DNA from: an uncultured Candidatus Saccharibacteria bacterium
Lineage (GTDB): Bacteria; Patescibacteriota; Minisyncoccia; UBA6257; JACOXY01
DNA: 64,000 bases
Reading direction: 5' to 3'
NCBI GenBank assembly: GCA_964357615.1
Contig: CAYHMC010000003.1
Span: 34,678 to 98,677 of the forward strand
In this document: in pieces, positions 3,821 through 59,315 of the stretch
Layout of the letters: every line of letters begins with the position of its first letter
Position numbering within the stretch: position 1 is the stretch's first letter
Notes under the pieces: generated by a model
What the model was told of the DNA's origin: nothing
The model's input: the letters and a program-made list of their open reading frames with translations, nothing else
Database searches by the model: none
Translations under genes and position numbers: made by a program

Positions 3821-4885
3821 CTAGGGAGTGTACCTAGGGCTATCTACAACCAAAAAACTAGTACCAGTTTTTTTAACAGTGTATTTAAAATCTGTTTTGG
3901 GTGGCTCTGGCGTCTCTTCTGTAGCTCCACAGCAAAGACCAATACCAAAAGTAGTTCCATCTTTGTTGACGAACTGGATCACAAAACTAAACTCAGTTGG
4001 AGAAATCTCATTTTGACTTAAAATTGTTTTTATTTTTAAGCAATTCAAACCATTAACCTCACAACCTGATTTAATCAACCCAACATGATCGTTAATGTCC
4101 ATATCAGGATTCCAATATTGGAGATATTCATATCCGGACCCATGATACTGCAGCGCTTCAGCGTATTGTCGCTCATTTAAAAGATTAAAATATGAAACAA
4201 GCACTTCCTTAGCCAATTCAATATCAGCTTCAGTTTTAGCCTGTTTAACTAATTTACCACTTATAAATTTATAAGTTTCTTTAATTGTTGGGTAACCAAC
4301 CCCCTCAATTAATACAACAAAAGTATTATTATAAATCGAGATTATTTTTCCATTTTGTTTTCCAAATCCAACTGTATCTACAATTTTTGCTATACCATTA
4401 AAATTTTTAAAGACATATAATTCGCCTCCGCTTGAAGCACGAACAACCCTACCCGGAACAAGCGCTTCTAAAAGATTGTCGCCATCCAAGTCGGCAAAAA
4501 TAAGACCATCATAAGAACCGGAACCTCCGGAACCCAACCCAATATAAGGCAATTCATCTCCAAGAGAATCTTTGCCACCCTCAGCTACTCCGTTTTTAAA
4601 TTGTCGATTGTACATATCAAATCCATTCCATACCTGCTCTTTGGTAATTTGCACAGTATTTTTGTTTATAGTCTCTAAAATTGCATCAGCCATTATTTCT
4701 GTTAGCGACGTCGTTGGTGATGATGTTGGTGATGGTATAGCTGGTCCAACTAAACCAAAACGCTCAACCAACGAGCTTTTTTCTAAAACCACATATCCGA
4801 TTCCGCCAATCAAAACTGTAGCCAAAATAATCATTAATATGTTTGCAAAACCCTGTGTTTTCATAGAAATAATTTTCTTATCCAT
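3821..4885 (-). CDS. Hypothetical secreted/membrane-anchored protein (N-terminal TM; DLDGDN FG-GAP-like motif)
   Basis: Long ORF with an N-terminal hydrophobic helix and a Pro/Ser/Thr linker. No recognisable catalytic motif. Confidence 0.5.
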   Translation of the reverse strand: MDKKIISMKTQGFANILMIILATVLIGGIGYVVLEKSSLVERFGLVGPAIPSPTSSPTTSLTEIMADAILETINKNTVQITKEQVWNGFDMYNRQFKNGVAEGGKDSLGDELPYIGLGSGGSGSYDGLIFADLDGDNLLEALVPGRVVRASSGGELYVFKNFNGIAKIVDTVGFGKQNGKIISIYNNTFVVLIEGVGYPTIKETYKFISGKLVKQAKTEADIELAKEVLVSYFNLLNERQYAEALQYHGSGYEYLQYWNPDMDINDHVGLIKSGCEVNGLNCLKIKTILSQNEISPTEFSFVIQFVNKDGTTFGIGLCCGATEETPEPPKTDFKYTVKKTGTSFLVVDSPRYTP

Positions 4886-4888
4886 AAC

Positions 4889-5827
4889 TTACGGCTGAAA
4901 TATATCCAAAGTCCTACCTTCTACAGAAAGCTTAACGCTTTTTAGGGTAGGAAATTGTAATAGTGTTTCCTTTATTTGAGCTACTCGCATTGTCATACTG
5001 CAAGATCCACCACCAGATTCTGTTATTGAATTAAAATCTGCGCGCGCTTCTCCGTTAACTATTACTAATGAATTAAGCTTGCTACCAAAAGGAATGCTGG
5101 TAATAAAACCGTCCTTTTTTTCTTCGACAGTAGGACCCTTCAACAATTCACTAATTGCAGCCGTAGCAATTTTCTCTGTCTTTTCAATTACTCTAGTAAC
5201 CAAGGTAACTTCATCACAAGAATTGGCTTCTTGGGTTTTGGTATTATGAAAATATACTTTAACGGGAGTAGTTTCTCCTGTTACTACAAAACTAACTTCA
5301 TTGCTCTTTTGCGCCCAAGGATCAACATAAATTTTATAATTTCCTGGAACTAATTTAAGAAAAGAATCGCACGGCAATCCACTATAAGAGGTGTCGTGAG
5401 AACACAAAGAACTAGCCAAAGTAACTTTTATAAGATTGTCGGTTGAGTCATTACTACCCCTAAGCAATCCTTTTACCCCAGATGCATTTTGAATCCATGC
5501 ATTCTTATCTCCTTCAAATCCAGAAAAATAACATCCCTTGATTTCTAATTTTGTTCCAGCAGTACCTGAATAACTTGAAAGTTGATGTATTATTGGAACA
5601 CTTTCCTCTCCGTCTTTCTCGGGCTCGCAGGGAAGCTCCATGGCGACTGGCGAAGGTGATGTCAAAACCGACAAATTAGGCGAGTTCATTGGGGAGGGTG
5701 CCCCATCTTCAACATATCTAATTGAATTTCTAAGCAAGGCAACGCACACTGAAACTACAGCCAAAACAATGAACATACTAACTACTAAAATATTTACAAA
5801 TCCCTTTTTTTTCATATTATTAAGCAA
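4889..5827 (-). CDS. GerMN domain-containing secreted protein
   Basis: N-terminal TM helix. C-terminal region VKVYFHN…LLKGPT..E…ADFNS…GGSCSMTMRVAQIKETLLQFPTLKSVKLSVEG matches the GerMN consensus pattern. Confidence 0.55.
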   Translation of the reverse strand: MLNNMKKKGFVNILVVSMFIVLAVVSVCVALLRNSIRYVEDGAPSPMNSPNLSVLTSPSPVAMELPCEPEKDGEESVPIIHQLSSYSGTAGTKLEIKGCYFSGFEGDKNAWIQNASGVKGLLRGSNDSTDNLIKVTLASSLCSHDTSYSGLPCDSFLKLVPGNYKIYVDPWAQKSNEVSFVVTGETTPVKVYFHNTKTQEANSCDEVTLVTRVIEKTEKIATAAISELLKGPTVEEKKDGFITSIPFGSKLNSLVIVNGEARADFNSITESGGGSCSMTMRVAQIKETLLQFPTLKSVKLSVEGRTLDIFQP

Positions 5828-9920: not shown

Positions 9921-9971
9921 ATAGCTATTATATAACGAATAACAGCAATTTAGTTACAAAAAAAGACCGCC

Positions 9972-10124
9972 TCAGTTGTTCTGGGCGATCCGGTGAAGTT
10001 CGCGCTTTTCTTGTCTGCGGTCATAGCCGTGCTTTCCTTTCTTAGTGGAATGATATCCACCAGTTTGTCTTGGTAGTGGAACACGCATCATTGCAAGCGG
10101 ATTCTTTGCTTTTACTTTTTTCAC
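9972..10124 (-). CDS. Small basic protein (50 aa, GTG start), GC-rich cassette 1 gene A
   Basis: SD GAAGGAGG sits 4 nt before the GTG start. ORF is MKKVKAKNPLAMMRVPLPRQTGGYHSTKKGKHGYDRRQEKRELHRIAQNN. An intrinsic terminator (GATCGCC…GGCGGTC plus T7) follows the stop. Not in the ORF track (<60 aa). Confidence 0.4.
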   Translation of the reverse strand: MKKVKAKNPLAMMRVPLPRQTGGYHSTKKGKHGYDRRQEKRELHRIAQNN

Positions 10125-10459
10125 TTTTCCTCCTTCGGTAAGTCGTAGCTTTAGCGAAGGTTACCCTTCATTAGTTTTTCTACTAGCTATAGTCTCTCCC
10201 TTTCAAAATCCACATTTAAACATGAACTTTAAAAGAAGCCCGAGGGACAAAACAGAGATGCGATTTCTCTGATGTGTCACTCGGGGTATAAATCGCGCAG
10301 TCCGCATACTTGATTGCAATCAAGTAGTTGCGGTTGACAGTGGTTACCGTGTGAATCTTGCAAAATGCACACAGATGCCTCCACTGCCTAACTCCTCTCA
10401 TTTCATCGCAAGGGTTGGCACGGTTTGGATTGGCTGCGCAACCAACCACCCGTAGATTT

Positions 10460-10714
10460 CTATTTGCGACGCTTGCGACTCTTGCCACCGCCACTCTTCA
10501 ATCCTTGAACCATCATCTGGAAACCTACGTAGATGATCCCAAGAATCACCACGTAGTTCAAAATGTGCTCGAGGAGTGGAGTTATGTGGTTTACAGCCAC
10601 AATTCCAAGTCCCGGAACCACAGAGAGGAACACAAGGACGAGAAACCCAATCGTCCAGAGACCTCTGGGAGGAAAGAAAAGATATCTTCCCCATGCTTCG
10701 AAAAAATCTCTCAT
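10460..10714 (-). CDS. Small membrane protein (84 aa, two TM helices), cassette 1 gene B
   Basis: SD GAGGAG sits 8 nt before the ATG. Two hydrophobic helices and a basic C-terminus. GC-rich codon usage unlike the flanking genes. Confidence 0.45.
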   Translation of the reverse strand: MRDFFEAWGRYLFFPPRGLWTIGFLVLVFLSVVPGLGIVAVNHITPLLEHILNYVVILGIIYVGFQMMVQGLKSGGGKSRKRRK

Positions 10715-11064
10715 ACTCTTTTCTCCTCGCTCAAATTTTTATTTGAGCTGTTATTGGTTTTTGATGTGCTGTCATTGCTTCCTTTCAAAATATTTATTGA
10801 GTTAAATATTTTGAAAGGAACCCGAGAGAGTCGACCGGCAATTTCTTGCTCGGCTCGCTCCCTCGGGAAAACGGGTTTTTCTCCGGCTATAAACCCGAAA
10901 ACGGTTCTGCTTTTTTTTGAGTCCGAGAGGGGGATCGGCCCTTCACAGCTGGCTTCTGCCCTCTCGGTGGTAGGTTTTTGCTGAAAACCTTTCCCCAAAA
11001 CAGCGCGCGCAATCCAGGTCAGGCACCTGGGAGCAGGAAGGATTTGGAGTCGTTTAGCACTCCG

Positions 11065-11298
11065 TTATCCTGCTCGTTCGCTTTGAGTCCGGAATGGACC
11101 CCTCACCCGACCCGGGCGAGCAAGCCTATCGTCCTGAACGAATCGGCATGGCAGCGAACCGCCTACATTCTGCATCGAGTGGCCAAACTCGTATGCAGAC
11201 CTCTGCTGAACACATGGGATTTTCCCCTGTGACCCCGTACCCGGATGGCTGCGCGCGTCCATCTGTACAGGAATTAAGATTTTTCTTCGGTAAGCCAT
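11065..11298 (-). CDS. Questionable small ORF (77 aa), cassette 1 gene C; start lies inside the repeated leader element and has no SD
   Basis: Open frame in GC-rich DNA. The region is full of hairpins and may instead be non-coding. Confidence 0.2.
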   Translation of the reverse strand: MAYRRKILIPVQMDARSHPGTGSQGKIPCVQQRSAYEFGHSMQNVGGSLPCRFVQDDRLARPGRVRGPFRTQSERAG

Positions 11299-11578
11299 AG
11301 CTTTAAACGAAGGCTACCCTAATTTCTGTACAGATGATTTACATACCTACTTAAAAAATTTAGCGAAGAACTTTTCTGTTTCGTCCTGAGCTTGTCGAAG
11401 GACTCATCAGTACGAGCATACACTCGTAGACAGAAAGGAGTTTTAAGGTCTCCTTAAACCCTACGCTGTGGTCTCGCTCATGCTTATCAAAAAGTTTGGC
11501 TAGAACTTTTATGTTCTGCTAATGCAGAACTTTTGCATGAATCCCCACTTACGTCTGCGCAAACGGCCAGAGCAACCC

Positions 11579-11857
11579 TTAACCGATACTCAGGTCAAGT
11601 ATTTGTCCGACGTAATCCTTAACATCAACACCTTGCGGTGGAGCGCCAAGAACCACGTACAGACAACGGTCGCTGTAGGCGGATGACATAGCTCGGAAGT
11701 CTGCGCTAATATTCTTAGCCGCAAGCGTCCGACGCACATGCGCAATCCGCCTCTGGCAGGTAGGACAACCATCCGCTTCGGCTACTTCGAAAAGAATGTT
11801 GCCATTCTCCTCCAGTATCGAGCGCGGAGTTGCCCAGCCTTGCACGCGAACTTGCAT
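11579..11857 (-). CDS. Small CxxC (CPTC) protein, thioredoxin/glutaredoxin-like guess, cassette 1 gene D
   Basis: SD GGAGG sits 6 nt before the ATG, and a 7-bp hairpin (CCTCAGA…TCTGAGG) sits just 5' of the SD. The protein contains GCPTCQ. Confidence 0.4.
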   Translation of the reverse strand: MQVRVQGWATPRSILEENGNILFEVAEADGCPTCQRRIAHVRRTLAAKNISADFRAMSSAYSDRCLYVVLGAPPQGVDVKDYVGQILDLSIG

Positions 11858-12039
11858 AATTCACCTCCTTTCATGCCTCAGAGCCATCTGAGGGTTAGTT
11901 GTGAATTATAAATCCATTCTCGAAGAACTTTCAGAAAACAAAATGTTTTCCTGTTAAAACATTCCAATCTTGAAATGCTTTAACAGAAACCCGAATTTTG
12001 TCTCGGGCGGGACACTCGTTTTTCCGGATAACGAGAAAC

Positions 12040-12273
12040 CTACATCGCGAGCTGGGGCTCCTTACGAACTGGGAGTCCCAGCTGGGCGAGTTCGGCGCGA
12101 ACCTTTTGGACCAGCGGACGGTCCGGAAGATTCACTTGCAAGGTAGCTTTACAGCCCTTGCACTTGCCGACCTGACCCAAGAGAGCAAGACGAATGCCCT
12201 CTCGCGGTGAGCGATGCGGACGATTTCGATGTCCGCATTCCTCACAGTAAACATAGAATGGTTTAAAGAACAT
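12040..12273 (-). CDS. Small zinc-ribbon protein (CxxC…CxxC), cassette 1 gene E
   Basis: SD GGAGG sits 4 nt before the ATG. Cys pairs YCEECGH and KCKGCK are spaced 24 aa apart. Confidence 0.4.
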   Translation of the reverse strand: MFFKPFYVYCEECGHRNRPHRSPREGIRLALLGQVGKCKGCKATLQVNLPDRPLVQKVRAELAQLGLPVRKEPQLAM

Positions 12274-12629
12274 TCGACCTCCGATTTCAACCCTAACCTG
12301 CTATTTCTAGTCAGGATTTTACAGGGCGTGATTCCTTAAGGAGAGACCACAGCAAAAGTTCAAATTACTATTTATAACTATGCTAAACTTTTTTCTATGG
12401 CCTCCCCTAAAGGAGGCGGGAGAGATATGTTTAGGTCTGTTATTTTGTAGTTACGACCAATCATCATATCTGCACCCCATATTTATTTTCTGCGGTCATT
12501 ATACTCGATTTTTATGTATTTGTCAAGTGTCGGTGACAAACCGCTAAAATAAGCCTTATTTACTATATTTTATAAGAAAATTACTCTTTATTACTATGTC
12601 AAAATAGATAGACTTAGTTTTTAATATAC

Positions 12630-12658
12630 TTGACTAAAAGTAAATTATATGTTACAAT
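12630..12658 (+). promoter_or_regulatory. Consensus sigma70-type promoter (TTGACT-17-TACAAT) driving a non-coding unit
   Basis: The -35 TTGACT is at 12630, then a 17-nt spacer, then -10 TACAAT at 12653. Confidence 0.5.
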
Positions 12659-12664
12659 CTGCTC

Positions 12665-12938
12665 GAATGTGGCTATTCTGGTTTTTGTTTGGGCCAAGCT
12701 ATGTTCAGAGTCTGCGCAACCCTCGACTAAGTCGAGGTGGGGCTAAGGAGGTGCCAAATGAAGCTAGGCGGATCAGGTATCTAAAGCAACTCAATTCTGT
12801 GGTCTCTTTTGCAATCACATAGTCTGCTAGGCCAGAGAACAGCAACCAAAAAAAGTCAGTTCAATAGGCATTCCGATATAATTAAATATATCAACTTCCG
12901 GAGGCACCACCATGTGGCAAGCCTCCACTTTTTATTTT
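12665..12938 (+). ncRNA. Candidate structured sRNA (~270 nt), identity unresolved (6S-like architecture possible)
   Basis: Runs from the promoter to an intrinsic terminator (CCGGAGGC…GCCTCC plus T-run, 12898..12938). No ORF beyond 8 codons. The 5' end (GGTTTTTGTTTGGGCCAAGCTATG) pairs with the 3' end (CATAG.GCTAGGCC…AACCAAAAA). Confidence 0.35.
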
Positions 12939-13025
12939 AGCCTACAACTTTAATGCTAATTTTTAATCAAAATTAAAAAATCCAAAGAATTTATTCTTTG
13001 GATTGTAACAACCATAAAAGCTAAC

Positions 13026-13787
13026 TTAATTTAATTTCTTCCACAAAAGCTCAAAAAGTGCTCGCATTGAATTCGCAATATCTCTGTCTTCTATTAAAAC
13101 ACCAGCTGACTTATCACGAAAAGCTGAAATACTCATAACATCGTCATAAATAGCTAAATCACAGGTAAACGGAAATTGTTCTACTGGAATAAATCTTGTT
13201 TCGCGAAGCAACGCTTTATTTTCTCTGCCTAAGATATCCCCCTTACTACTAGTGTAAATGAGTCTTGATTTAATACCTTTTTGCACTCGGCGTGGCGCAT
13301 GCTTTTCTGGATGATTAGGAAAAATTTTTAAAATACCATCAACATCTGCAATTGATATAATTTGTTTATTTTTCATCTTAAGAGCTTCGTCCTGCATTGT
13401 TTGCAATCCTTCCTTGCCCTCAAAAAATCTAACCTTGGGACGCGTACCAGAAAGTTTAAATAAATTTGAAAGCTCTGGGAGATTATTTTTTAGTGTTGAT
13501 GCACGCTCTTTAGCCTTAGCATTTTCGTTCTCAACAATTTTTTGTAAATGATCAGGATCTTCAGCCCGGAAATAAGTTTTGCCAGCTCCGCCCTTTTTTA
13601 TAATTTTTTCGAAACTGGAAACAAGCCCCATTTTCATGAGTGCTTCAAGTTGAACATAAGTTGTTGGTCTTTTTACTCCAGCCTTTTTTGCTACCTCATC
13701 TGCCGTAGCGCTGCCAATTTCTAAAAGCGCTAGATATACCCTTGCTTCATTTTCAGATAAACCAATTTTTTTAAGTTCTTCGTGCAT
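13026..13787 (-). CDS. TrmB-family transcriptional regulator
   Basis: N-terminal wHTH LSENEARVYLALLEIGSATADEVAKKAGVKRPTTYVQLEALMKMGLVS, typical of TrmB. Confidence 0.7.
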   Translation of the reverse strand: MHEELKKIGLSENEARVYLALLEIGSATADEVAKKAGVKRPTTYVQLEALMKMGLVSSFEKIIKKGGAGKTYFRAEDPDHLQKIVENENAKAKERASTLKNNLPELSNLFKLSGTRPKVRFFEGKEGLQTMQDEALKMKNKQIISIADVDGILKIFPNHPEKHAPRRVQKGIKSRLIYTSSKGDILGRENKALLRETRFIPVEQFPFTCDLAIYDDVMSISAFRDKSAGVLIEDRDIANSMRALFELLWKKLN

Positions 13788-13822: not shown

Positions 13823-16800
13823 CTAATGACTTTTTAATCCCACCCACACATCGCTTTCTTCGATTTTAGTCTCTATTTCTGCATCAATTTTATTCGTGCG
13901 CTTTAAATTAAGTTTTGTAGCACCCACCTGCTTAATAAATTCTTCACTATGACGTTCAATAATACCTCCGAATTGCTTTGAATCTAAATAGATTTCTATT
14001 TTATTTTTTGGTTGCAATTCAGCTTTTTGTCTTAATTCTTGCACAAGCCTTATAAATTCTCGAAGTATTCCTTCTTCGCGAAGCTCAGGTGTAATTTTTG
14101 TATCTAATTCAACACTCACATCTTTAAGTGTGTCGGAAATTTTTATTTCTTTAACATTAATTTCTTCTTTCAGAATACTAATAAGTTCTTTTTCTTTTAC
14201 AATCTTCGAAGCATCAGATTTTTTAGAAATATAAAGAACCGAAAGTGGTTGTCTAACTTTTATTCCAGCCTCTGCGCGCTTCGCTAATGCTTCGGTTGCG
14301 AGAGATCGCACCCAATGCATATTTTCAAGCAAGTTATTATCAATATGTTTTTTACTTACCACTGGCCAATCCTCAATATGAATTGAATCTTTATGCTCCC
14401 CACTTAAATTCAAAGACTTATAGATTGATTCTCCAAAAAATGGAGCGAATGGGGCCATAAGTTTTGCAATTTCTAAAATTGCAAAGCCCAAAGTTGCCGA
14501 ACAATCCTTAAAATCATTATTATCTTCTGGCCTCTGGAGACGACGACGAGAACGCCTTATGTACCATCTTGATAAATTATCTATCAGTTCTTCAATTGCT
14601 TTTGCTGCATTGCCAACTTCATATTTTTCTAATTCTTCTGTAACTTTCAATATTGTTTTGTTTAAACTTGCCAAAATCCACTTATCTAAAATATGTTTTG
14701 ATTTTAAATTTTTAAATACAGGGATTGGACTCTTATCTGCGTACATTTCATAAAAAACAAAAGAATTATACAAAATATTAAAAACTCTATTTTGAACTTT
14801 TTTAATATCAATTTCATCAAAGTTTTTTGTTTCTCCTGGGGCATTGATTGTATAAAAATACCACCTAATAGCATCAACACCATATTTAGCAATTACATCC
14901 CAGGGATTTACAACATTGCCCTTAGACTTCGACATTTTTTGCCCAAATTTATCATTAATAAGTCCAAGACAAATCACATTTTTAAATGGTGGCTCTTTAT
15001 GTCCCAGTAGCGTCCCAACCGTAAGGAGCGTATAAAACCAACCGCGCGTTTGATCGATTGCTTCACAAATAAAATCAGCTGGGTATGGAAATTCTTTTAA
15101 TCCTAGTCGTCTATCGTCTTTAACCAATGGATTACTTTTTTTGTATTTATTATCAACTGCAAACGGATAATGGGCTGATGCAAGTGGCATTGCGCCAGAA
15201 TCAAACCAAACATCGGCAACTTCTTTTATTCGCATCATCTTTCCATTACACTTTTTACATTTTAATACTACTTCATCTATGAAGGGGCGGTGCATATCAA
15301 GCTCGCCCTGTGTGTTATATGGCCAATTATTTAATTTTACTTTACGCGACTCACCAACCCGAATATAATCCATAGCCAACATTTCTTCATTAGAAAAATT
15401 TTTCATAGCACCCTCCATCATCCACAGTGGATCTCCGTGACTAACTATTAGAATGCGCTTATTAACATGGAGCTTATTAATTTCTCTAATAAATCCAAAT
15501 ACTCTCTTTTTTATATCAGTTAAATTTTCTCCCCCAGGCGGTGTTTTTGTAAATTCTTCAGACGGTGAATCAAAGAAAGCTTTGTGTTCTTTGGTTGGTT
15601 TTTCATTGAATATTCCAGCATTTGCTTCTTCTATTCTTTTATCTACAATAACTTTTATATCTGATGCTTTTCCTATTTCTTTGGCTAGCTCTAGTGCGCG
15701 CTTATAGGGAGATGAATAAATCACATCAATTTTTCCCTTTAACTTTTTAGCAATTTCGATTGCTTCTTTTTTACCTTTTTCTGTAAGTGGTTCTATTTTC
15801 CCCTTTGGGCCAGATGCCACAATATCCTTAACATTGTGTAATGCTTCTGTATGGCGCTGTAGCATAAATTCATTACCATAATAATCATGCTCGTTTAACT
15901 CCGATAAACCTTGTATTACATTTTCAATTCCACAATCCTCACAAGACCAAACAGGAAGCGGTGTACCCCAATAACGCTGTCTTGAAATAGCCCAATCTTT
16001 TGCTTCTTTAATCCATTCTCCAAAACGCCCTTCTTTTATGTGCTCTGGTATCCAATTAATTTTTTTATTGGAAGATAGAAGTTGTGGTCGGAGCTTAGAA
16101 ACTTCTATAAACCATGCTGTTCTAGCAAAATAAATAAGCGGAGTAGAACATCTCCAGCAAAAAGGATATTCATGTTCTTGTTTCTCTGACTTATACATCA
16201 ATCCCCTTTTTTCTAAGTCAGCAATGATATCATTGTCTGCGCTTTTGATAAATTTATGCGCTCCTGGGAATCCAGCTACCATATTACCATCGTCATCAAC
16301 TGTCACTGGAATATTTTGATATGAAAAACTATCCACAGATGATTTAATCAAATTAAAATCATCGACACCAAAAGCTGGCGCGATATGAACAAAACCTGTG
16401 CCATCTTCTACTAAAACAAAATCAGCGCTATAGACGCGATAAGAATTATCGCTTGATAGCTTATTGTGCGAAGTTTTATACAATGGTTCGTATTCAAGAC
16501 CAATCAATTTTTTACCAGATATTTTCTCGACAGCTTCTATGCTGTAATCTTCTTTCGTGGGAGGAGGATTTATAGACCAAATATATTCCAGCTTAGCGCC
16601 AGTCGAAAAAGATTTTTTTATAGCGTACTTTGTATATGTAACTCCAGAATTAACTGCGATAGCAACATTAGCTGGAAGTGTCCATGGCGTTGTAGTCCAA
16701 ACCAATAAGTATTCGTTTGTTTTATTTTTTATTTTGAACTTTATGTAAATTGATGGGTCTTTAACTTTTTTATATACACCAGGTTGACCCAACTCATGAC

Positions 16801-17368
16801 TCGCTAAAACCGTTTGACACCTTGGACAATATGGAACAACTTTATAATCTTTGCGTAATAAACCTTTATTTGATATTTGCGACAAAACCCACCAAAGCGA
16901 TTCAATATAATAATTTTCATAAGTAGCATAGGCGTTTTTTAAATCCAACCAAAATCCTATACGATTAGTCATTTTTTCCCACTCATCTTTATATTTCCAA
17001 ACAACTTCTTTAGCTTTTTGATTAAATAATCCTATGCCGAACTGTTCAATATCTTTTTTGTTCTTAATTCCTAATTCTTTTTCAACTTCTATTTCCACGG
17101 GGAGGCCATGAGTATCCCAGCCAGCACGGCGCGGAACATAATAACCACGCATAGTTTTATATCTAAGTATAATATCTTTAAAAACACGGCCCAATATATG
17201 ATGAATACCTGGCCTTCCATTGGCTGTTGGAGGACCTTCGTAAAAAACAAATCTTTCTCCCTTCTCTTTGGTCTTTAAAGTTTTCTCGAAAATTTGATTC
17301 GTTTTCCAATATTCTAAGACTTTTTCTTCAATGTCTGCTAGTTTAAATTCTTTTAGATTTTTTAACAT
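13823..17368 (-). CDS. ileS: Isoleucyl-tRNA synthetase (type 2) carrying an inserted histidine-phosphatase-like domain
   Basis: PPTANG…IHHILG (HIGH region), the CP1 editing domain, KMSKS, and zinc knuckles WSCEDCG and CKKCNG. About 185 aa between the knuckles carry LQRHTE, SSPYKRALELA and IVSHGD (RHG / SHG phosphatase motifs). Confidence 0.9.
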   Translation of the reverse strand: MLKNLKEFKLADIEEKVLEYWKTNQIFEKTLKTKEKGERFVFYEGPPTANGRPGIHHILGRVFKDIILRYKTMRGYYVPRRAGWDTHGLPVEIEVEKELGIKNKKDIEQFGIGLFNQKAKEVVWKYKDEWEKMTNRIGFWLDLKNAYATYENYYIESLWWVLSQISNKGLLRKDYKVVPYCPRCQTVLASHELGQPGVYKKVKDPSIYIKFKIKNKTNEYLLVWTTTPWTLPANVAIAVNSGVTYTKYAIKKSFSTGAKLEYIWSINPPPTKEDYSIEAVEKISGKKLIGLEYEPLYKTSHNKLSSDNSYRVYSADFVLVEDGTGFVHIAPAFGVDDFNLIKSSVDSFSYQNIPVTVDDDGNMVAGFPGAHKFIKSADNDIIADLEKRGLMYKSEKQEHEYPFCWRCSTPLIYFARTAWFIEVSKLRPQLLSSNKKINWIPEHIKEGRFGEWIKEAKDWAISRQRYWGTPLPVWSCEDCGIENVIQGLSELNEHDYYGNEFMLQRHTEALHNVKDIVASGPKGKIEPLTEKGKKEAIEIAKKLKGKIDVIYSSPYKRALELAKEIGKASDIKVIVDKRIEEANAGIFNEKPTKEHKAFFDSPSEEFTKTPPGGENLTDIKKRVFGFIREINKLHVNKRILIVSHGDPLWMMEGAMKNFSNEEMLAMDYIRVGESRKVKLNNWPYNTQGELDMHRPFIDEVVLKCKKCNGKMMRIKEVADVWFDSGAMPLASAHYPFAVDNKYKKSNPLVKDDRRLGLKEFPYPADFICEAIDQTRGWFYTLLTVGTLLGHKEPPFKNVICLGLINDKFGQKMSKSKGNVVNPWDVIAKYGVDAIRWYFYTINAPGETKNFDEIDIKKVQNRVFNILYNSFVFYEMYADKSPIPVFKNLKSKHILDKWILASLNKTILKVTEELEKYEVGNAAKAIEELIDNLSRWYIRRSRRRLQRPEDNNDFKDCSATLGFAILEIAKLMAPFAPFFGESIYKSLNLSGEHKDSIHIEDWPVVSKKHIDNNLLENMHWVRSLATEALAKRAEAGIKVRQPLSVLYISKKSDASKIVKEKELISILKEEINVKEIKISDTLKDVSVELDTKITPELREEGILREFIRLVQELRQKAELQPKNKIEIYLDSKQFGGIIERHSEEFIKQVGATKLNLKRTNKIDAEIETKIEESDVWVGLKSH

Positions 17369-22583: not shown

Positions 22584-22931
22584 GGGGATGAAAGGCCTCG
22601 ACAGGCTACTAACCTTAAAAATTGCAAGCAGAGATGTGAAATCTCTTAAAACATTCACAAAAGAATAAGTGCAAACTCATTCAACAAACAACCGGCCTTA
22701 GCATTTGCATAAGACCCATCGACGCTACTTACGCCTAATCGGTTGATCGTCGGTGTTAAATTATTAGGCTCTGTTCCCTACTCCTGCGGAGGGAATGAAT
22801 ATTGAGCGGGAAAGTGTTGTGTGCTTGGCCTCCTGGCACTTGGCACATGACACTTAAAATAATGTCAGGATAAGCTTGTAGATATTTTTAATTTTACGGC
22901 CTGGACGGCGGTTCAAATCCGCCCATCTCCA
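22584..22931 (+). ncRNA. ssrA: tmRNA (SsrA)
   Basis: 5' GGGGATGAAAGGCCTCGACAGG. Tag reading frame GCA AAC TCA TTC AAC AAA CAA CCG GCC TTA GCA TTT GCA TAA gives ANSFNKQPALAFA. 3' tRNA-like end GGCGGTTCAAATCCGCCCATCTCCA. Confidence 0.85.
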
Positions 22932-22943
22932 CAAACTAAAAGA

Positions 22944-57396: not shown

Positions 57397-57425
57397 TTGA
57401 CATTTTCATTTTTTTATGCTAATAT
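57397..57425 (+). promoter_or_regulatory. Consensus sigma70 promoter TTGACA-17-TAATAT in an intergenic region with no downstream ORF
   Basis: Exact -35 hexamer, 17-nt spacer, and a near-consensus -10. Confidence 0.5.
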
Positions 57426-57431
57426 TTGTAC

Positions 57432-57632
57432 GATATTTGTTCTTTGTTTGGGTCTGTGGGCGGGAATTTCTTTTAGCACCAAGGATTGTCTGGCTTCGGC
57501 TGGACTTCTCCTCGAAGGAATTCTAACCTCTTTTTATTTTAAGAAGAGACTAATTTAGTCCCTCCCACCAGTTTTGCTGATTATTCGGCAAAAGTGGCGG
57601 GGGGGCATATGCCCACAGACCCAAACAAAAAA
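57432..57632 (+). ncRNA. Candidate structured sRNA (~200 nt), 6S-like closed-hairpin architecture; identity unresolved
   Basis: TTGTTTGGGTCTGTGGGC (57444..57461) pairs perfectly with GCCCACAGACCCAAACAA (57611..57628). Internal hairpins, including a UUCG loop. No ORF. Confidence 0.35.
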
Positions 57633-59315
57633 CTACCAATTTAAAGGACCGGTTATCCTTTCCACCTCATCTAAAGTAGTAATCCCTAGAAGAGCTCGCA
57701 AAATACCCGCCTGCTGAATTGTTACAATACCCAATGATTTAGTAGCGGTCTTTATATCAACATCGGTTACTTCTTTTGAAATCAGCTGACTTACTAAGTC
57801 GGTTACTTTTAGAATTTCCATTATGGCAATTCTTCCTTTGTAACCTATGCCATTACAAGCGCTACAACCCACTGGTTGGTATAAAATTATATTTTTATAT
57901 TTATCTTGTGGCACCGTGCTGGGGAGAGACTGTAAAAATGTAGAAATTTTAGGTTTGAATTTTTCTGTTGCCTCGGTTTGAGGTTTTTTGCATTTATCAC
58001 AAAGACGCCTAACTAAACGCTGTGCGATTATTAAATTTATTGCCGGTCCCATAATAGCTGGCTTTGCTCCCAAATCAACAAGCCTCGGAATAGCTCCGAA
58101 AGAATCATTTGTGTGTAGTGTTGAAAATACAAGATGTCCGGTAAGTGCAGCGTTCAGTGCAATGTCTGCTGTTTCATAGTCTCTTATTTCTCCTATTAAA
58201 ATTACATCTGGGTCTTGCCTAACAATCGAACGCAATCCGCTTGCAAATGTGTAACCTGCTTCGGGGTTTACTTGGGTTTGTTCAACTCCTGGTAATTTAT
58301 ATTCAATCGGGTCTTCTATGGTAATCATTTTGTCCTCTGGTTTATTTACATGAACTAAAAAAGCGTATAGTGTTGTGGTTTTCCCTGAGCCAGTTGGTCC
58401 AGTGTTTAAAATCATTCCATTGGGTCGCTGAAGTTCTACTTCGATAATCTTAAGGTCTTCGTCGTTTAGGCCAAGGTCTTTTAGAGAAAGTAAAATTGTA
58501 TCTGGATCAAGAACTCTTAAAACTACGGTTTCTCCGTATTCAGACGGGAGAGCTGACGCCCTAATTTCGATTGTTTTTTTACCCATCTTCACCGAGAATC
58601 TTCCATCCTGAGCTGCATTGTGAATATTAAGTTTCATTGATGCAAGAAGTTTAATTCGCGAGAGCACCAAAAAATATTCTGACTGTGGAAAACCAGAATA
58701 TATTTCATGCAACAAACCATCAATACGAAGTCTAAATTTTACTCCTTCTTGTTCTGGTTCTAAATGAATATCGGATGCTTTAAGAGAAAGGGCTGCGGCA
58801 AGTACAATTTCTAAAACCTGTCCCGTGGCAACCTGCGACTTCAGAGCACTATCAATTGTTATTCGCGTTGCCTCTAAAGAAGAAATGCTCTCTTGAAGTT
58901 TGATTAATCTATCGTTATCTATCTCAACTTTTCCAGTAATATCTCCTAATTTTTTTCCAGCCAAATCATAAAAACTCCAAACTCTTTCGATGCCAGACAT
59001 AGAACCAATTAGTATGTCTATTTTTTTTGCTTTTTTAAGTAGTTGGTCGATTGTTTTTTTTGTGTTTGGTAATGAAGGGTCATAAGCAACAACAATAAGT
59101 TTATCTCTTTTTTCAGCAAGAATTGCGCATTTTGCTTCGTGTGCTTCTTCTTTTGATAAAATCGATACGGCGCTCACTTGAATTGGTGCTGTTTTTAGAT
59201 CAATATAAGTATATCCAAGTTTTTCGGCTCTTCGCTTTGCATCGCGCTCCTCTGCCTCTCGTGACATTTTCGTCAGTTTTTCTCCTAGTTTTGGCTTTGA
59301 AGATAAAGATGACAT
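57633..59315 (-). CDS. pilB: Type IV pilus / type II secretion assembly ATPase (PilB/GspE family)
   Basis: Walker A GPTGSGKTTT, an Asp box, a His box, and a C-terminal tetracysteine (CDKC…CSAC). Confidence 0.85.
   Translation of the reverse strand: MSSLSSKPKLGEKLTKMSREAEERDAKRRAEKLGYTYIDLKTAPIQVSAVSILSKEEAHEAKCAILAEKRDKLIVVAYDPSLPNTKKTIDQLLKKAKKIDILIGSMSGIERVWSFYDLAGKKLGDITGKVEIDNDRLIKLQESISSLEATRITIDSALKSQVATGQVLEIVLAAALSLKASDIHLEPEQEGVKFRLRIDGLLHEIYSGFPQSEYFLVLSRIKLLASMKLNIHNAAQDGRFSVKMGKKTIEIRASALPSEYGETVVLRVLDPDTILLSLKDLGLNDEDLKIIEVELQRPNGMILNTGPTGSGKTTTLYAFLVHVNKPEDKMITIEDPIEYKLPGVEQTQVNPEAGYTFASGLRSIVRQDPDVILIGEIRDYETADIALNAALTGHLVFSTLHTNDSFGAIPRLVDLGAKPAIMGPAINLIIAQRLVRRLCDKCKKPQTEATEKFKPKISTFLQSLPSTVPQDKYKNIILYQPVGCSACNGIGYKGRIAIMEILKVTDLVSQLISKEVTDVDIKTATKSLGIVTIQQAGILRALLGITTLDEVERITGPLNW

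What the first reader, a model, noticed from the sequence alone, without database searches (positions are those of the whole stretch)
12630..12938. Promoter-to-terminator unit with no ORF: candidate ~270-nt structured sRNA
A TTGACT-17-TACAAT promoter is followed by about 270 nt lacking any ORF longer than 8 codons. The unit ends in a strong terminator (CCGGAGGC…GCCTCC plus U-run). The 5' and 3' ends of the transcript pair (GGTTTTT.GTTTGGGCCAAGCTATG with CATAG.GCTAGGCC…AACCAAAAA), closing the molecule. It shares a 5' TTTGTTTGGG / 3' CCAAA.AAAAA signature with the second candidate at 57432..57632. I could not find the RNase P P4 motifs or the SRP RNA domain IV motifs, so 6S RNA or a lineage-specific sRNA are the main options.
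Basis: partly seen in the sequence, partly recalled or inferred. Interest (0 to 1): 0.55.

Follow-up and report, generated by a model that had tools for sequence, protein, structure and literature searches.

The report
Tiny glycine-rich ORF on conserved RNA
The promoter-to-terminator unit is real and conserved in Patescibacteria, but it is not a 6S-like structured RNA: it is a short, self-contained transcript whose conserved core is a strong ribosome-binding site and a 3-15-codon glycine-rich reading frame (MKLGGSGI here), of unknown function.

Summary
The unit (promoter 12630-12658, terminator 12900-12938, + strand) is real. Promoter, a hairpin starting about 7 nt after the -10 box, and the terminator recur tail-to-tail with a TrmB-family regulator gene in relatives down to about 40% protein identity. 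Rfam finds nothing there (6S, SRP and RNase P included). The 10-mer shared with candidate 2 is not conserved.

AGGAGG (12746-12751) plus ATG opens an 8-codon ORF (12758-12784, MKLGGSGI*). Thirty units carry such an ORF of 3-15 codons:
- Glycine makes up 43% of residues in frame, against 5-7% out of frame.
- The penultimate residue is Gly in 20/30.
- The stop codon is TAA in 26/30.
- GGNGG tracts lie in the Gly-Gly frame in 36/49 cases; controls are flat.

The leader is under purifying selection, and in about a third of units it sequesters the SD. In many relatives a TTGTCA-N8-TGACAA palindrome overlaps the promoters.

Function is unknown. I favour a translated mini-gene RNA whose ribosome loading is the functional event. 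A peptide product is the main rival. Just upstream lies an unannotated structured RNA with a hammerhead ribozyme.

The parts
12630..12658 (+). Sigma-70-type promoter of the unit: -35 TTGACT (12630-12635), 17-nt spacer ending in TG, -10 TACAAT (12653-12658)
   Evidence: 10/12 matches, TG present. Conserved as TTGACw-N14-TGyTAyAAT in L001, L003, L004, L005, L086, L087, L089 and L090.
12665..12706 (+). 5'-terminal hairpin P1 (GAAUGUGGC ... GCUAUGUUC closing a variable insert). It starts about 7 nt after the -10 box, at the inferred transcription start
   Evidence: MFE fold. Pair probability about 0.7. Nine pairs are kept in L003, L087 and L004 with one-sided changes only. It lies at the same distance from the -10 box in all four. 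The start site is inferred, not measured.
12720..12737 (+). Hairpin CCCUCGAC-UAA-GUCGAGG, which carries a CCCUC anti-SD-like arm
   Evidence: conserved in L003 and L087, with U-A to C-G changes. Analogous CCUCC elements pair directly with the SD in other clades.
12746..12751 (+). Shine-Dalgarno AGGAGG, 6 nt upstream of the ATG
   Evidence: Read directly from the sequence. Conserved in all catalogued units. Predicted to be mostly paired in the full-length RNA (unpaired probability 0.03-0.33) but open in local context (0.77).
12758..12784 (+). Mini-ORF ATG AAG CTA GGC GGA TCA GGT ATC TAA = MKLGGSGI*
   Evidence: Homologues include MKYGGSGI, MKIGGGAGY, MKTGGGGY, MKHGGEAI, MSNGGEGV, MGLGY, MLGV and MGW.
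12785..12899 (+). 3' untranslated region. It is poorly conserved and contains GGCAUUCC (12868-12875), which the MFE fold pairs with the SD
   Evidence: prediction only. Identity to homologues is 0.56-0.72.
12900..12938 (+). Intrinsic terminator: stem GGAGGC.CCAC...GUGG...GCCUCC (12900-12926) and U-run (12929-12938)
   Evidence: Conserved in position, with compensatory changes.
12979..13004 (.). Second, bidirectional terminator hairpin between the unit and the convergent TrmB-family gene. It insulates the two transcripts
   Evidence: 11-pair stem, T-run on the minus strand. One search shows the same hairpin.
13026..13787 (-). TrmB-family (TrmBL2-like) transcription regulator gene. It is convergent with the unit and is its only constant neighbour
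   Evidence: Pfam TrmB HTH. Full-length match to TrmBL2 structures. Linkage to the unit is kept even where IleRS, the block or the ABC gene are absent.
12520..12539 (.). Perfect palindrome TTGTCAAGTGTCGGTGACAA (TTGTCA-N8-TGACAA), a candidate operator. It overlaps the -35 of the divergent minus-strand promoter (12526 to 12498)
   Evidence: Only perfect site in the 64-kb window. About 37-fold enriched downstream of TrmB genes; present in 51/82 loci, and 19 loci have two or more sites, in at least seven of them about 127-137 nt apart. In relatives such as L035, L024, L034 and L087 a second copy overlaps the unit's own -35; in the window it does not.

Best explanation
The region is a self-contained gene for a short RNA, about 270 nt, built like a very small, stable mRNA.

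What the sequence and comparisons show:
- A strong extended -10 promoter starts the transcript at a 5'-terminal hairpin.
- A leader of about 90 nt, constrained as RNA, carries CCUCC-type anti-SD elements.
- A near-perfect Shine-Dalgarno and an ATG open an 8-codon ORF (MKLGGSGI), which closes with TAA.
- An intrinsic terminator ends the RNA.
- The unit is single-copy in the window and lies tail-to-tail with a TrmBL2-like regulator gene across Patescibacteria (Paceibacteria-type lineages).
- In many relatives its promoter and the divergent promoter each overlap a TTGTCA-N8-TGACAA palindrome.

What is inferred:
- Ribosomes load on the SD and translate the mini-ORF.
- Loading is gated by alternative pairing of the SD with anti-SD segments.
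- The palindrome is bound by the adjacent regulator.

My committed reading of the mechanism carries about 0.35 probability. The functional event is ribosome engagement and translation of a Gly-codon-rich mini-ORF, which reports on translation or Gly-tRNA status, or stabilises the RNA. The output would go through the conserved leader RNA acting as a riboregulator. This resembles stand-alone attenuator RNAs with leader peptides. On this reading the peptide is not a stable effector.
For: Unit and conservation:
- Promoter, 5' hairpin and terminator are conserved.

Mini-ORF:
- It is present in 30 catalogued units at a fixed position 120-380 nt from the TrmB stop.
- SD+ATG+short ORF containing Gly-Gly occurs at 0.21/kb there against 0.016/kb elsewhere in the same loci (Poisson p = 4e-11).
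- GGNGG tracts after an SD+ATG are in the Gly-Gly frame 36/49 times (22 loci against 6 and 3), while control DNA gives 51/36/54 (p = 1e-8).
- Gly is 43% of residues in frame against 7% and 5% out of frame. The penultimate residue is Gly in 20/30. The stop is TAA in 26/30.

Favouring 'act of translation' over a stable peptide:
- ORF length varies from 3 to 15 codons and the sequence drifts quickly.
- The leader is more conserved than neutral sites, and in the L001/L086 pair more than the ORF.
- One hairpin sequesters the SD and AUG in about a third of units.
- No peptide-modifying genes lie within about 12 kb, and none is listed in the relatives' gene tables.

Regulon context:
- The palindrome is enriched about 37-fold next to TrmB genes.

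Precedents:
- mccA, a ribosome-bound abundant short transcript (PMC4231749).
- rnTrpL/peTrpL (PMC7298713).
Against: - There is no expression or ribosome-occupancy data.
- No downstream gene exists on the same strand for the unit to regulate, and a second terminator (12979-13004) blocks read-through, so a classical attenuator has no target.
- No trans target has been identified.
- SD sequestration is bimodal and overall not different from ordinary genes (Mann-Whitney p = 0.11).
- The frame-specific Gly enrichment and the G-hydrophobic-stop pattern are amino-acid-level signals. They fit a peptide product at least as well.
- Part of the catalogue was selected for Gly-Gly. The frame test avoids that bias but counts overlapping tracts.
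- Giovannonibacteria-type loci (L009, L013, L020) keep the promoter and terminator but have degenerate ORFs.
- The window's own unit promoter lacks the palindrome.
- Leader structure has little covariation support with the few sequences available.
Confidence: 0.55

Rival explanations
1. The peptide is the product. The unit is a mini-mRNA that mass-produces a tiny Gly-rich peptide (formyl-MKLGGSGI here). The peptide would act as a signal, a cofactor or antibiotic precursor, or a ligand of the adjacent TrmB-family regulator, in the manner of mccA or of peptide-regulator pairs.
For: - Amino-acid-level constraints: 43% Gly in frame only, penultimate Gly in 20/30, hydrophobic or aromatic last residue in 20/30.
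- Strong SD, TAA stop, 5' hairpin and terminator, as in the stable, ribosome-bound mccA transcript (PMC4231749).
- Rapid diversification of the ORF next to a conserved regulator.
- An ABC exporter gene is nearby in the window's clade.
- Some clades have 30-49-codon in-frame extensions with their own SD that could be precursors.
Against: - Many family members encode only 3-5 residues (MGF, MGI, MGW, MLGV), and L013 has at best a start-stop.
- No conserved modifying enzyme, dedicated exporter or importer travels with the unit. L088, L086 and L003 lack the ABC gene.
- The long in-frame extensions show no codon-position signature and match no family.
- The regulator resembles TrmBL2, which is not known as a peptide sensor.
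Confidence: 0.3
2. It is a purely non-coding structured sRNA, the reader's 'lineage-specific sRNA'. The AGGAGG...AUG...GGNGG segment would be an RNA or protein binding motif or a structural element and is not translated.
For: - The leader is under purifying selection as RNA.
- The 5' hairpin and a second hairpin are conserved.
- In one subclade AUGGG pairs with CCCA, and AGGAGG with CCUCCU, so part of the G-richness serves pairing.
- Weak overall fold signal on the sense strand only (z = -2.1 against -1.0).
Against: - A binding motif does not need to keep GGN in the ATG frame (36/49 against flat controls).
- It also does not need a prompt in-frame TAA (26/30), or correct SD-ATG spacing in every unit.
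- No consensus structure spans the body of the RNA.
- There is no Rfam family.
Confidence: 0.12
3. It is 6S RNA, or another housekeeping RNA such as SRP RNA or RNase P RNA, too divergent for Rfam.
For: - Its size is roughly right for 6S if processed.
- In the window alone, a 5'/3' helix can form at about 30% probability.
Against: - No hit to any of these families, even at E<=10 with relaxed filters.
- The closing helix is not conserved in any homologue.
- Length and sequence vary widely between close relatives, unlike housekeeping RNAs.
- The conserved core is an SD plus an ORF.
Confidence: 0.02

Closest known systems
mccA mini-mRNA of the microcin C operon (Zukher et al. 2014, PMC4231749; 2019, PMC6495379)
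   Same: - A 7-codon ORF with a strong SD sits on a short, abundant transcript.
- That transcript ends at an intrinsic terminator shortly after the ORF.
- The ribosome-bound RNA is very stable.
- The peptide sequence is poorly conserved between systems.
   Different: - mccA is the first gene of an operon whose MccB enzyme adenylates a mandatory C-terminal Asn. Here the peptide ends in Ile (or Tyr, Trp, Val, Phe, Gly in relatives).
- No ThiF/MccB-like gene is nearby.
- Nothing follows on the same strand.
- ORF length is not fixed (3-15 codons).
Stand-alone or released ribosome-dependent attenuator RNAs with leader peptides (rnTrpL/peTrpL of Sinorhizobium; PMC7298713, PMC7968998)
   Same: - A small RNA with a short ORF enriched in one kind of codon, followed by a terminator.
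- Both the RNA and the peptide can act in trans.
   Different: - trpL has Trp codons and, in S. meliloti, sits upstream of trpE(G).
- Here the enriched codons are Gly, no biosynthetic gene is linked, and no antiterminator alternative has been shown.
SD-sequestering translational control elements (RNA thermometers such as ROSE and fourU, and riboswitch expression platforms; from general knowledge)
   Same: A CCUCC(U) anti-SD a few nucleotides upstream pairs with the SD, and in one subclade with the AUG as well, in a single hairpin.
   Different: - Those elements control a normal downstream gene. Here the gated ORF is only 3-15 codons.
- Sequestration is seen in only about a third of units and is ambiguous in the window.
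- No conserved aptamer-like core is shared across clades.
   Same: An independently transcribed RNA of a few hundred nucleotides without an annotated gene.
   Different: - No model match.
- No conserved closing stem or central bubble.
- It contains a conserved translated-looking mini-ORF.
Toxic or regulatory minigenes (phage lambda bar, the 23S rRNA E-peptide minigene; general knowledge; see also PMC2490762, PMC8708949)
   Same: ORFs of 2-8 codons with a good SD, whose effect comes from being translated (peptidyl-tRNA drop-off, or a peptide acting on the ribosome).
   Different: - Those are embedded in other transcripts.
- The last sense codon is not fixed here, so depletion of one specific tRNA is unlikely.

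Membership tests
6S RNA | Match to the Rfam 6S covariance models | tested here: not met
   No hit at the gathering threshold on the window, and none at E<=10 with permissive filters on 12450-13050.
6S RNA | Conserved rod: closing stem formed by the 5' and 3' ends, central bubble, terminal stem | tested here: not met
   The closing helix has pair probability about 0.3 in the window only. RNAalifold on five and on four homologues finds only the terminator and two local hairpins.
6S RNA | Binds sigma-70 holoenzyme and templates pRNA | not testable with these tools
   Needs biochemistry.
SRP RNA / RNase P RNA | Match to Rfam models (domain IV, or the P4 and CR-I to CR-V elements) | tested here: not met
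   tmRNA and one tRNA were found elsewhere in the window, so the scan does detect structured RNAs in this genome.
mccA-type peptide-nucleotide antibiotic precursor | Very short ORF with a strong SD on a short terminated transcript | tested here: met
   8 codons, AGGAGG-N6-ATG, and a terminator 115 nt after the stop.
mccA-type peptide-nucleotide antibiotic precursor | C-terminal Asn as the site of adenylation | tested here: not met
   The window peptide ends in Ile. None of the 30 catalogued ORFs ends in Asn.
mccA-type peptide-nucleotide antibiotic precursor | Adjacent mccB (ThiF/E1-like) gene and exporter genes downstream on the same strand | tested here: not met
   Neighbours within about 12 kb are housekeeping genes. 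Nothing follows on the + strand before the convergent TrmB gene. Gene tables of relatives list no ThiF.
Ribosome-dependent transcription attenuator | Leader ORF enriched in codons of one amino acid | tested here: met
   Gly is 43% of codons in frame, often in runs of 2-5.
Ribosome-dependent transcription attenuator | Terminator with a mutually exclusive antiterminator controlled by ribosome position | tested here: inconclusive
   The terminator is present. No conserved antiterminator pairing was found. The distance from stop to terminator varies from about 16 to 150 nt.
Ribosome-dependent transcription attenuator | Regulated structural gene downstream on the same strand | tested here: not met
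   The next gene is convergent (13026-13787, minus strand), and a second terminator lies in between.
SD-sequestering RNA thermometer or riboswitch platform | SD paired with an upstream anti-SD in the default fold | tested here: inconclusive
   The SD is closed (unpaired probability below 0.1) in L019, L024, L025, L027, L028, L030, L035, L076 and L087, and open in others. Overall the units do not differ from ordinary genes (p = 0.11). In the window it is 0.77 open locally and 0.03-0.33 in the full-length fold.
Rgg/RRNPP-type peptide-regulator pair | Small peptide gene next to its cytoplasmic receptor-regulator of the Rgg/RRNPP (TPR) class | tested here: not met
   Adjacency is conserved, but the regulator is TrmB-family and TrmBL2-like, not RRNPP. 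The window peptide has no secretion-competent precursor.

The most novel reading that the evidence does not exclude
The unit is a stand-alone sensor of translation in ultra-small CPR bacteria. Its only 'gene' is a 3-15-codon Gly-rich mini-ORF, and ribosome or Gly-tRNA occupancy of that ORF sets the fate of a trans-acting leader RNA. A TrmBL2-like repressor, through a shared TTGTCA-N8-TGACAA operator, would co-regulate it with the divergent multi-kilobase structured RNA, its embedded hammerhead and the unannotated 50-residue basic protein. Together these would form a previously undescribed RNA-centred regulon.
Probability: 0.15. Interest if true: 0.8.

Novelty: new variant of a known kind. Interest (0 to 1): 0.5.

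Why it matters
Patescibacteria (CPR) make up a large share of bacterial diversity. They are almost entirely uncultured, and very little is known about their regulatory RNAs or small proteins. This locus shows a recurrent, unannotated gene-like unit whose conserved core is an ORF of only 3-15 codons. Both gene callers and RNA-family scans miss this class of element. If the mini-ORF is translated, it adds either one of the smallest conserved coding units known or a new kind of stand-alone, translation-coupled riboregulator. It also gives a concrete, testable regulon (palindromic operator plus TrmBL2-like regulator) in organisms where no transcription-factor regulon has been worked out. More generally, 'no ORF' calls on intergenic transcripts should be checked for SD-preceded mini-ORFs by comparative frame analysis.

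Tried and rejected
- **Rfam:** gathering scan on the window and permissive E-value scans on both candidates and on 11 related loci gave nothing at the unit.
- **Related loci with a single protein** in the species-representative genomes: no hits. An alignment query then worked.
- **Metagenome pattern search** with promoter plus 5' hairpin: only one, truncated hit with the same sequence as the window.
- **nhmmer profile of five units:** it finds only its own members, so primary sequence drifts too fast for profile searching.
- **CsrA-sponge idea** (many GGA motifs): I rejected it by inspection. By my own count the window unit has only about 3 GGA, roughly what its composition predicts. No tool test was run.
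- **T-box idea** (IleRS is nearby): rejected. The unit is on the wrong strand, lies downstream of ileS, and gives no Rfam T-box hit.
- **Leaderless 51-codon ORF from ATG 12667:** not conserved. L004 and L087 have ACG at that position.
- **Long in-frame upstream ORFs (30-49 codons) in some clades:** no codon-position signature and no family match. I treat them as leader RNA.
- **Short repeats between the unit and the block** (D6-D8): by my estimate, about the number of 9-mer seed matches expected by chance in 3 kb. Not pursued.
- **Source record look-up** through the 100%-identical protein: not indexed.
- **Database search with the 50-residue protein:** no candidates.
- **Candidate 2 (57432-57632):** not followed with homologues, for lack of remaining locus look-ups.

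Full report
**What is at the coordinates.** The + strand of 12630-12938 carries TTGACT-17-TACAAT with an upstream TG. At the other end is a terminator: a GGAGGC...GCCUCC stem (12900-12926) followed by a U-run. A promoter-like match alone is not above chance here (9 found, 7.8 expected). The real evidence for the unit is comparative.

**The organism.** It is a member of the Patescibacteria, close to Ca. Giovannonibacteria and Liptonbacteria. The same sequence occurs in a Hainich groundwater metagenome (L085).

**Rfam and folding.** Rfam finds tmRNA and one tRNA elsewhere in the window. It finds nothing at this locus, neither at the gathering threshold nor at E<=10 with permissive filters. The same is true of the second candidate at 57432-57632. 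The sense strand folds only marginally better than shuffles (z = -2.1; antisense -1.0). Candidate 2 is very stable (z = -9.7). The two candidates do not align.

**Homologues.** The neighbouring TrmB-family gene (13026-13787, minus strand) served as bait. In relatives with 57-79% protein identity, an alignable unit lies tail-to-tail with that gene. These relatives share:
- the same extended -10 promoter;
- a hairpin beginning exactly 7 nt after the -10 box;
- a terminator at the same place, with compensatory changes.

RNAalifold finds no other structure common to the body of the RNA.

- The closing helix can form in the window RNA, but only as a minority conformer. Its pairs have probability about 0.3, against about 0.7 for the competing 5' hairpin. 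It has no counterpart in any homologue.
- The TTTGTTTGGG 10-mer shared with candidate 2 is statistically unusual in the window. Two of its three occurrences are the two arms of candidate 2's own helix. It is absent from all homologous units.
- The 6S, SRP and RNase P ideas therefore fail every test I could run.

**The conserved core.** The best-conserved internal element is AAGGAGGTGCCAAATG, followed by 8 codons and TAA (12746-12784, MKLGGSGI*). Close relatives encode MKYGGSGI, MKIGGGAGY, MKTGGGGY, MKHGGEAI, MSNGGEGV, MGLGY, MLGV and MGW. More distant Patescibacteria have units at the same position, each with its own promoter and terminator. They encode MILSGGSGW, MMKGGGNGGNY, MIRHQNHGGGGEGGV, MRRLKYDDGEGAGGF, MRSGGGW, MGF, MGI, MGAG, MGVL and others.

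Three tests argue that this is a reading frame and not just a G-rich motif:
1. **Enrichment.** SD+ATG+short ORFs containing Gly-Gly are 13-fold enriched on this strand within 1 kb of the TrmB stop, relative to the rest of the same loci (0.21 against 0.016 per kb; p = 4e-11).
2. **Frame.** Starting from GGNGG tracts regardless of frame, those that follow an SD+ATG lie in the Gly-Gly frame 36 times out of 49 (22 loci against 6 and 3). Control DNA gives 51/36/54 (p = 1e-8).
3. **Composition.** In the 30 catalogued ORFs, Gly is 43% of residues in frame against 7% and 5% in the other frames. The penultimate residue is Gly in 20. The last residue is hydrophobic or aromatic in 20 and Gly in 6. The stop is TAA in 26.

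Caveats:
- Part of the catalogue was chosen for Gly-Gly.
- Overlapping tracts are not independent.
- Giovannonibacteria-type loci keep the promoter and terminator but have degenerate ORFs.

**The RNA part.** The leader is constrained beyond neutrality:
- L001/L086: 91% identity (ungapped) against 64% at third codon positions of the adjacent gene.
- L005/L089: 75% against 41%.
- L004/L087: 71% against 47%.

The mini-ORF and 3' UTR drift faster in the L001/L086 pair.

In several clades a CCUCCU element 8-10 nt upstream pairs with the SD. In the L024/L025/L027/L028 subclade one hairpin sequesters both the SD and AUG-GG. Sequestration is bimodal, however, and overall it is not different from ordinary genes (p = 0.11).

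In the window a CCCUC-containing hairpin (12720-12737) precedes an SD that is locally open. The full-length fold instead pairs the SD with a 3' UTR segment; that is a prediction only.

Some clades have 30-49-codon upstream ORFs, in frame or overlapping by ATGA. They show no codon-position signature and match no family. I treat them as leader RNA.

**Context.** The only constant neighbour is the TrmB-family gene, which aligns over its full length to archaeal TrmBL2. A palindrome, TTGTCA-N8-TGACAA, is about 37-fold enriched in the kilobase downstream of these genes. It is found in 51 of 82 loci, and 19 loci have two or more sites. In at least seven of them two sites lie about 127-137 nt apart, one over each divergent -35. 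In the window it occurs once without a mismatch, at 12520-12539, over the -35 of a 12/12 consensus promoter on the minus strand. The unit's own promoter in the window lacks it. No peptide-modifying or MccB-like gene lies within about 12 kb.

**Interpretation.** The unit is best described as a very small, stable, mRNA-like RNA with a constrained leader and a gated, translated mini-ORF. Two things remain open: whether the 8-residue peptide or the act of translating it is the functional output, and what the target is.

I favour the translation-coupled riboregulator reading, for these reasons:
- The ORF can shrink to 3 codons.
- The ORF sequence drifts while the leader is conserved.
- The enriched codons form runs, as in attenuator leader peptides.
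- No partner enzymes travel with the unit.

The amino-acid-level pattern (Gly, then a hydrophobic residue, then stop) keeps the peptide-product model alive. The closest documented precedents are the ribosome-bound mccA mini-transcript (PMC4231749, PMC6495379) and leader-peptide attenuator RNAs that act in trans (PMC7298713). The defining features of both were tested and are only partly met. Two literature searches found no description of such an element in Patescibacteria.

**By-products.** The divergent minus-strand promoter drives a G+C-rich region of about 2.5 kb (about 9970-12490) with these properties:
- It evolves as non-coding DNA: no codon periodicity, mostly 1-2-nt indels, and no Pfam hits.
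- It contains a type III hammerhead ribozyme that is conserved in five loci, with covarying stems.
- It contains a domain of about 310 nt with an 86-pair consensus structure, of which 19 pairs are compensatory.
- It ends in an unannotated, conserved 50-residue basic ORF with its own SD and terminator.

Similar G+C-rich, ORF-poor stretches follow the divergent promoter in many other Patescibacteria. This neighbour may be more novel than the assigned finding.

Noticed in passing
window 9970-12500, minus strand: A region of about 2.5 kb with G+C 0.45-0.58 (surrounding genes about 0.33) and no real ORF. It is driven by a perfect 12/12 TTGACA-17-TATAAT promoter (12526 to 12498). It is conserved in patches at 66-88% identity in relatives. 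Substitutions show no codon periodicity (263/280/240), indels are mostly 1-2 nt, and there are no Pfam or Rfam hits apart from the hammerhead. Its length varies from 2.3 to about 4.5 kb between relatives. Similar G+C-rich, ORF-poor stretches follow the divergent promoter in many Patescibacteria. It is possibly a very large, undescribed structured RNA or leader.
   Followed up: partly
window 11373-11436, minus strand; also L003 8611-8666, L013 3337-3391, and aligned in L086 and L004: A type III hammerhead ribozyme (44.6 bits, just under the gathering score of 48.5, E = 7.7e-8). The core CUGAUGAG...CGAAAC and the GUC cleavage site are conserved in five loci, and stems I and II show compensatory changes. 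It lies about 1.06 kb into the long minus-strand transcript.
   Followed up: yes
window 10969-11285, minus strand: A domain of about 310 nt inside the block. Its consensus structure has 86 pairs, including a long-range closing helix and several hairpins. Nineteen pairs keep pairing through changes on both sides, in only five sequences. It matches no Rfam family.
   Followed up: partly
window 10124-9972, minus strand: An unannotated 50-residue basic ORF (MKKVKAKNPLAMMRVPLPRQTGGYHSTKKGKHGYDRRQEKRELHRIAQNN) with SD GAAGGAGG, a GTG start and its own terminator, at the 3' end of the block. The motif PLPRQTGG...KGK.GYDR is conserved by tblastn in L003, L087, L004, L013, L018, L005 and L045. It has no Pfam or NCBIfam match and is absent from the large protein database.
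   Followed up: partly
window 12520-12539, and 51 of 82 related loci: The palindrome TTGTCA-N8-TGACAA overlaps -35 hexamers next to TrmB-family genes. It occurs at 0.90/kb there against 0.024/kb elsewhere. Nineteen loci have two or more sites; in at least seven of them two sites lie about 127-137 nt apart. It is a candidate operator of the TrmBL2-like regulator.
   Followed up: yes
window 57418-57640, + strand: The second candidate is an exceptionally stable RNA-like element (MFE -100.9 kcal/mol, z = -9.7). It has a closing helix of about 20 bp and three hairpins, and its own TTGACA-17-TAATAT promoter. It lies between the ruvB-like and pilB-like genes. It has no Rfam match, no SD or mini-ORF, and is not homologous to candidate 1.
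   Followed up: partly
window 13823-17368, minus strand: An isoleucyl-tRNA synthetase of 1181 residues with a histidine-phosphatase (His_Phos_1) domain inserted at residues 502-664. The same architecture occurs in relatives L001 and L005.
   Followed up: no
L028 about 4866-4905 (minus strand of the locus): The long upstream ORF stops at UGA immediately after GGAGGG. The +1 frame then continues E-M-G-A-G*, matching the in-frame C-terminus of L027. This is either an RF2-like +1 frameshift site or an assembly indel.
   Followed up: no
L030 1771-2112, L035 3412-3883, L031 27-346: Permuted (two-piece, alpha-type) tmRNA genes lie just upstream of the TrmB-family gene in these more distant Patescibacteria. 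The window has a standard one-piece tmRNA at 22584-22934, next to smpB.
   Followed up: no
window 12378-12467, minus strand: At the 5' end of the long minus-strand transcript there is a 29-codon ORF (MMIGRNYKITDLNISLPPPLGEAIEKSLA) behind GGGGTG-N5-ATG. The stretch is 80-89% conserved in relatives and includes a CCGCCUCC/GGGGAGG hairpin, another anti-SD/SD-like pairing.
   Followed up: no
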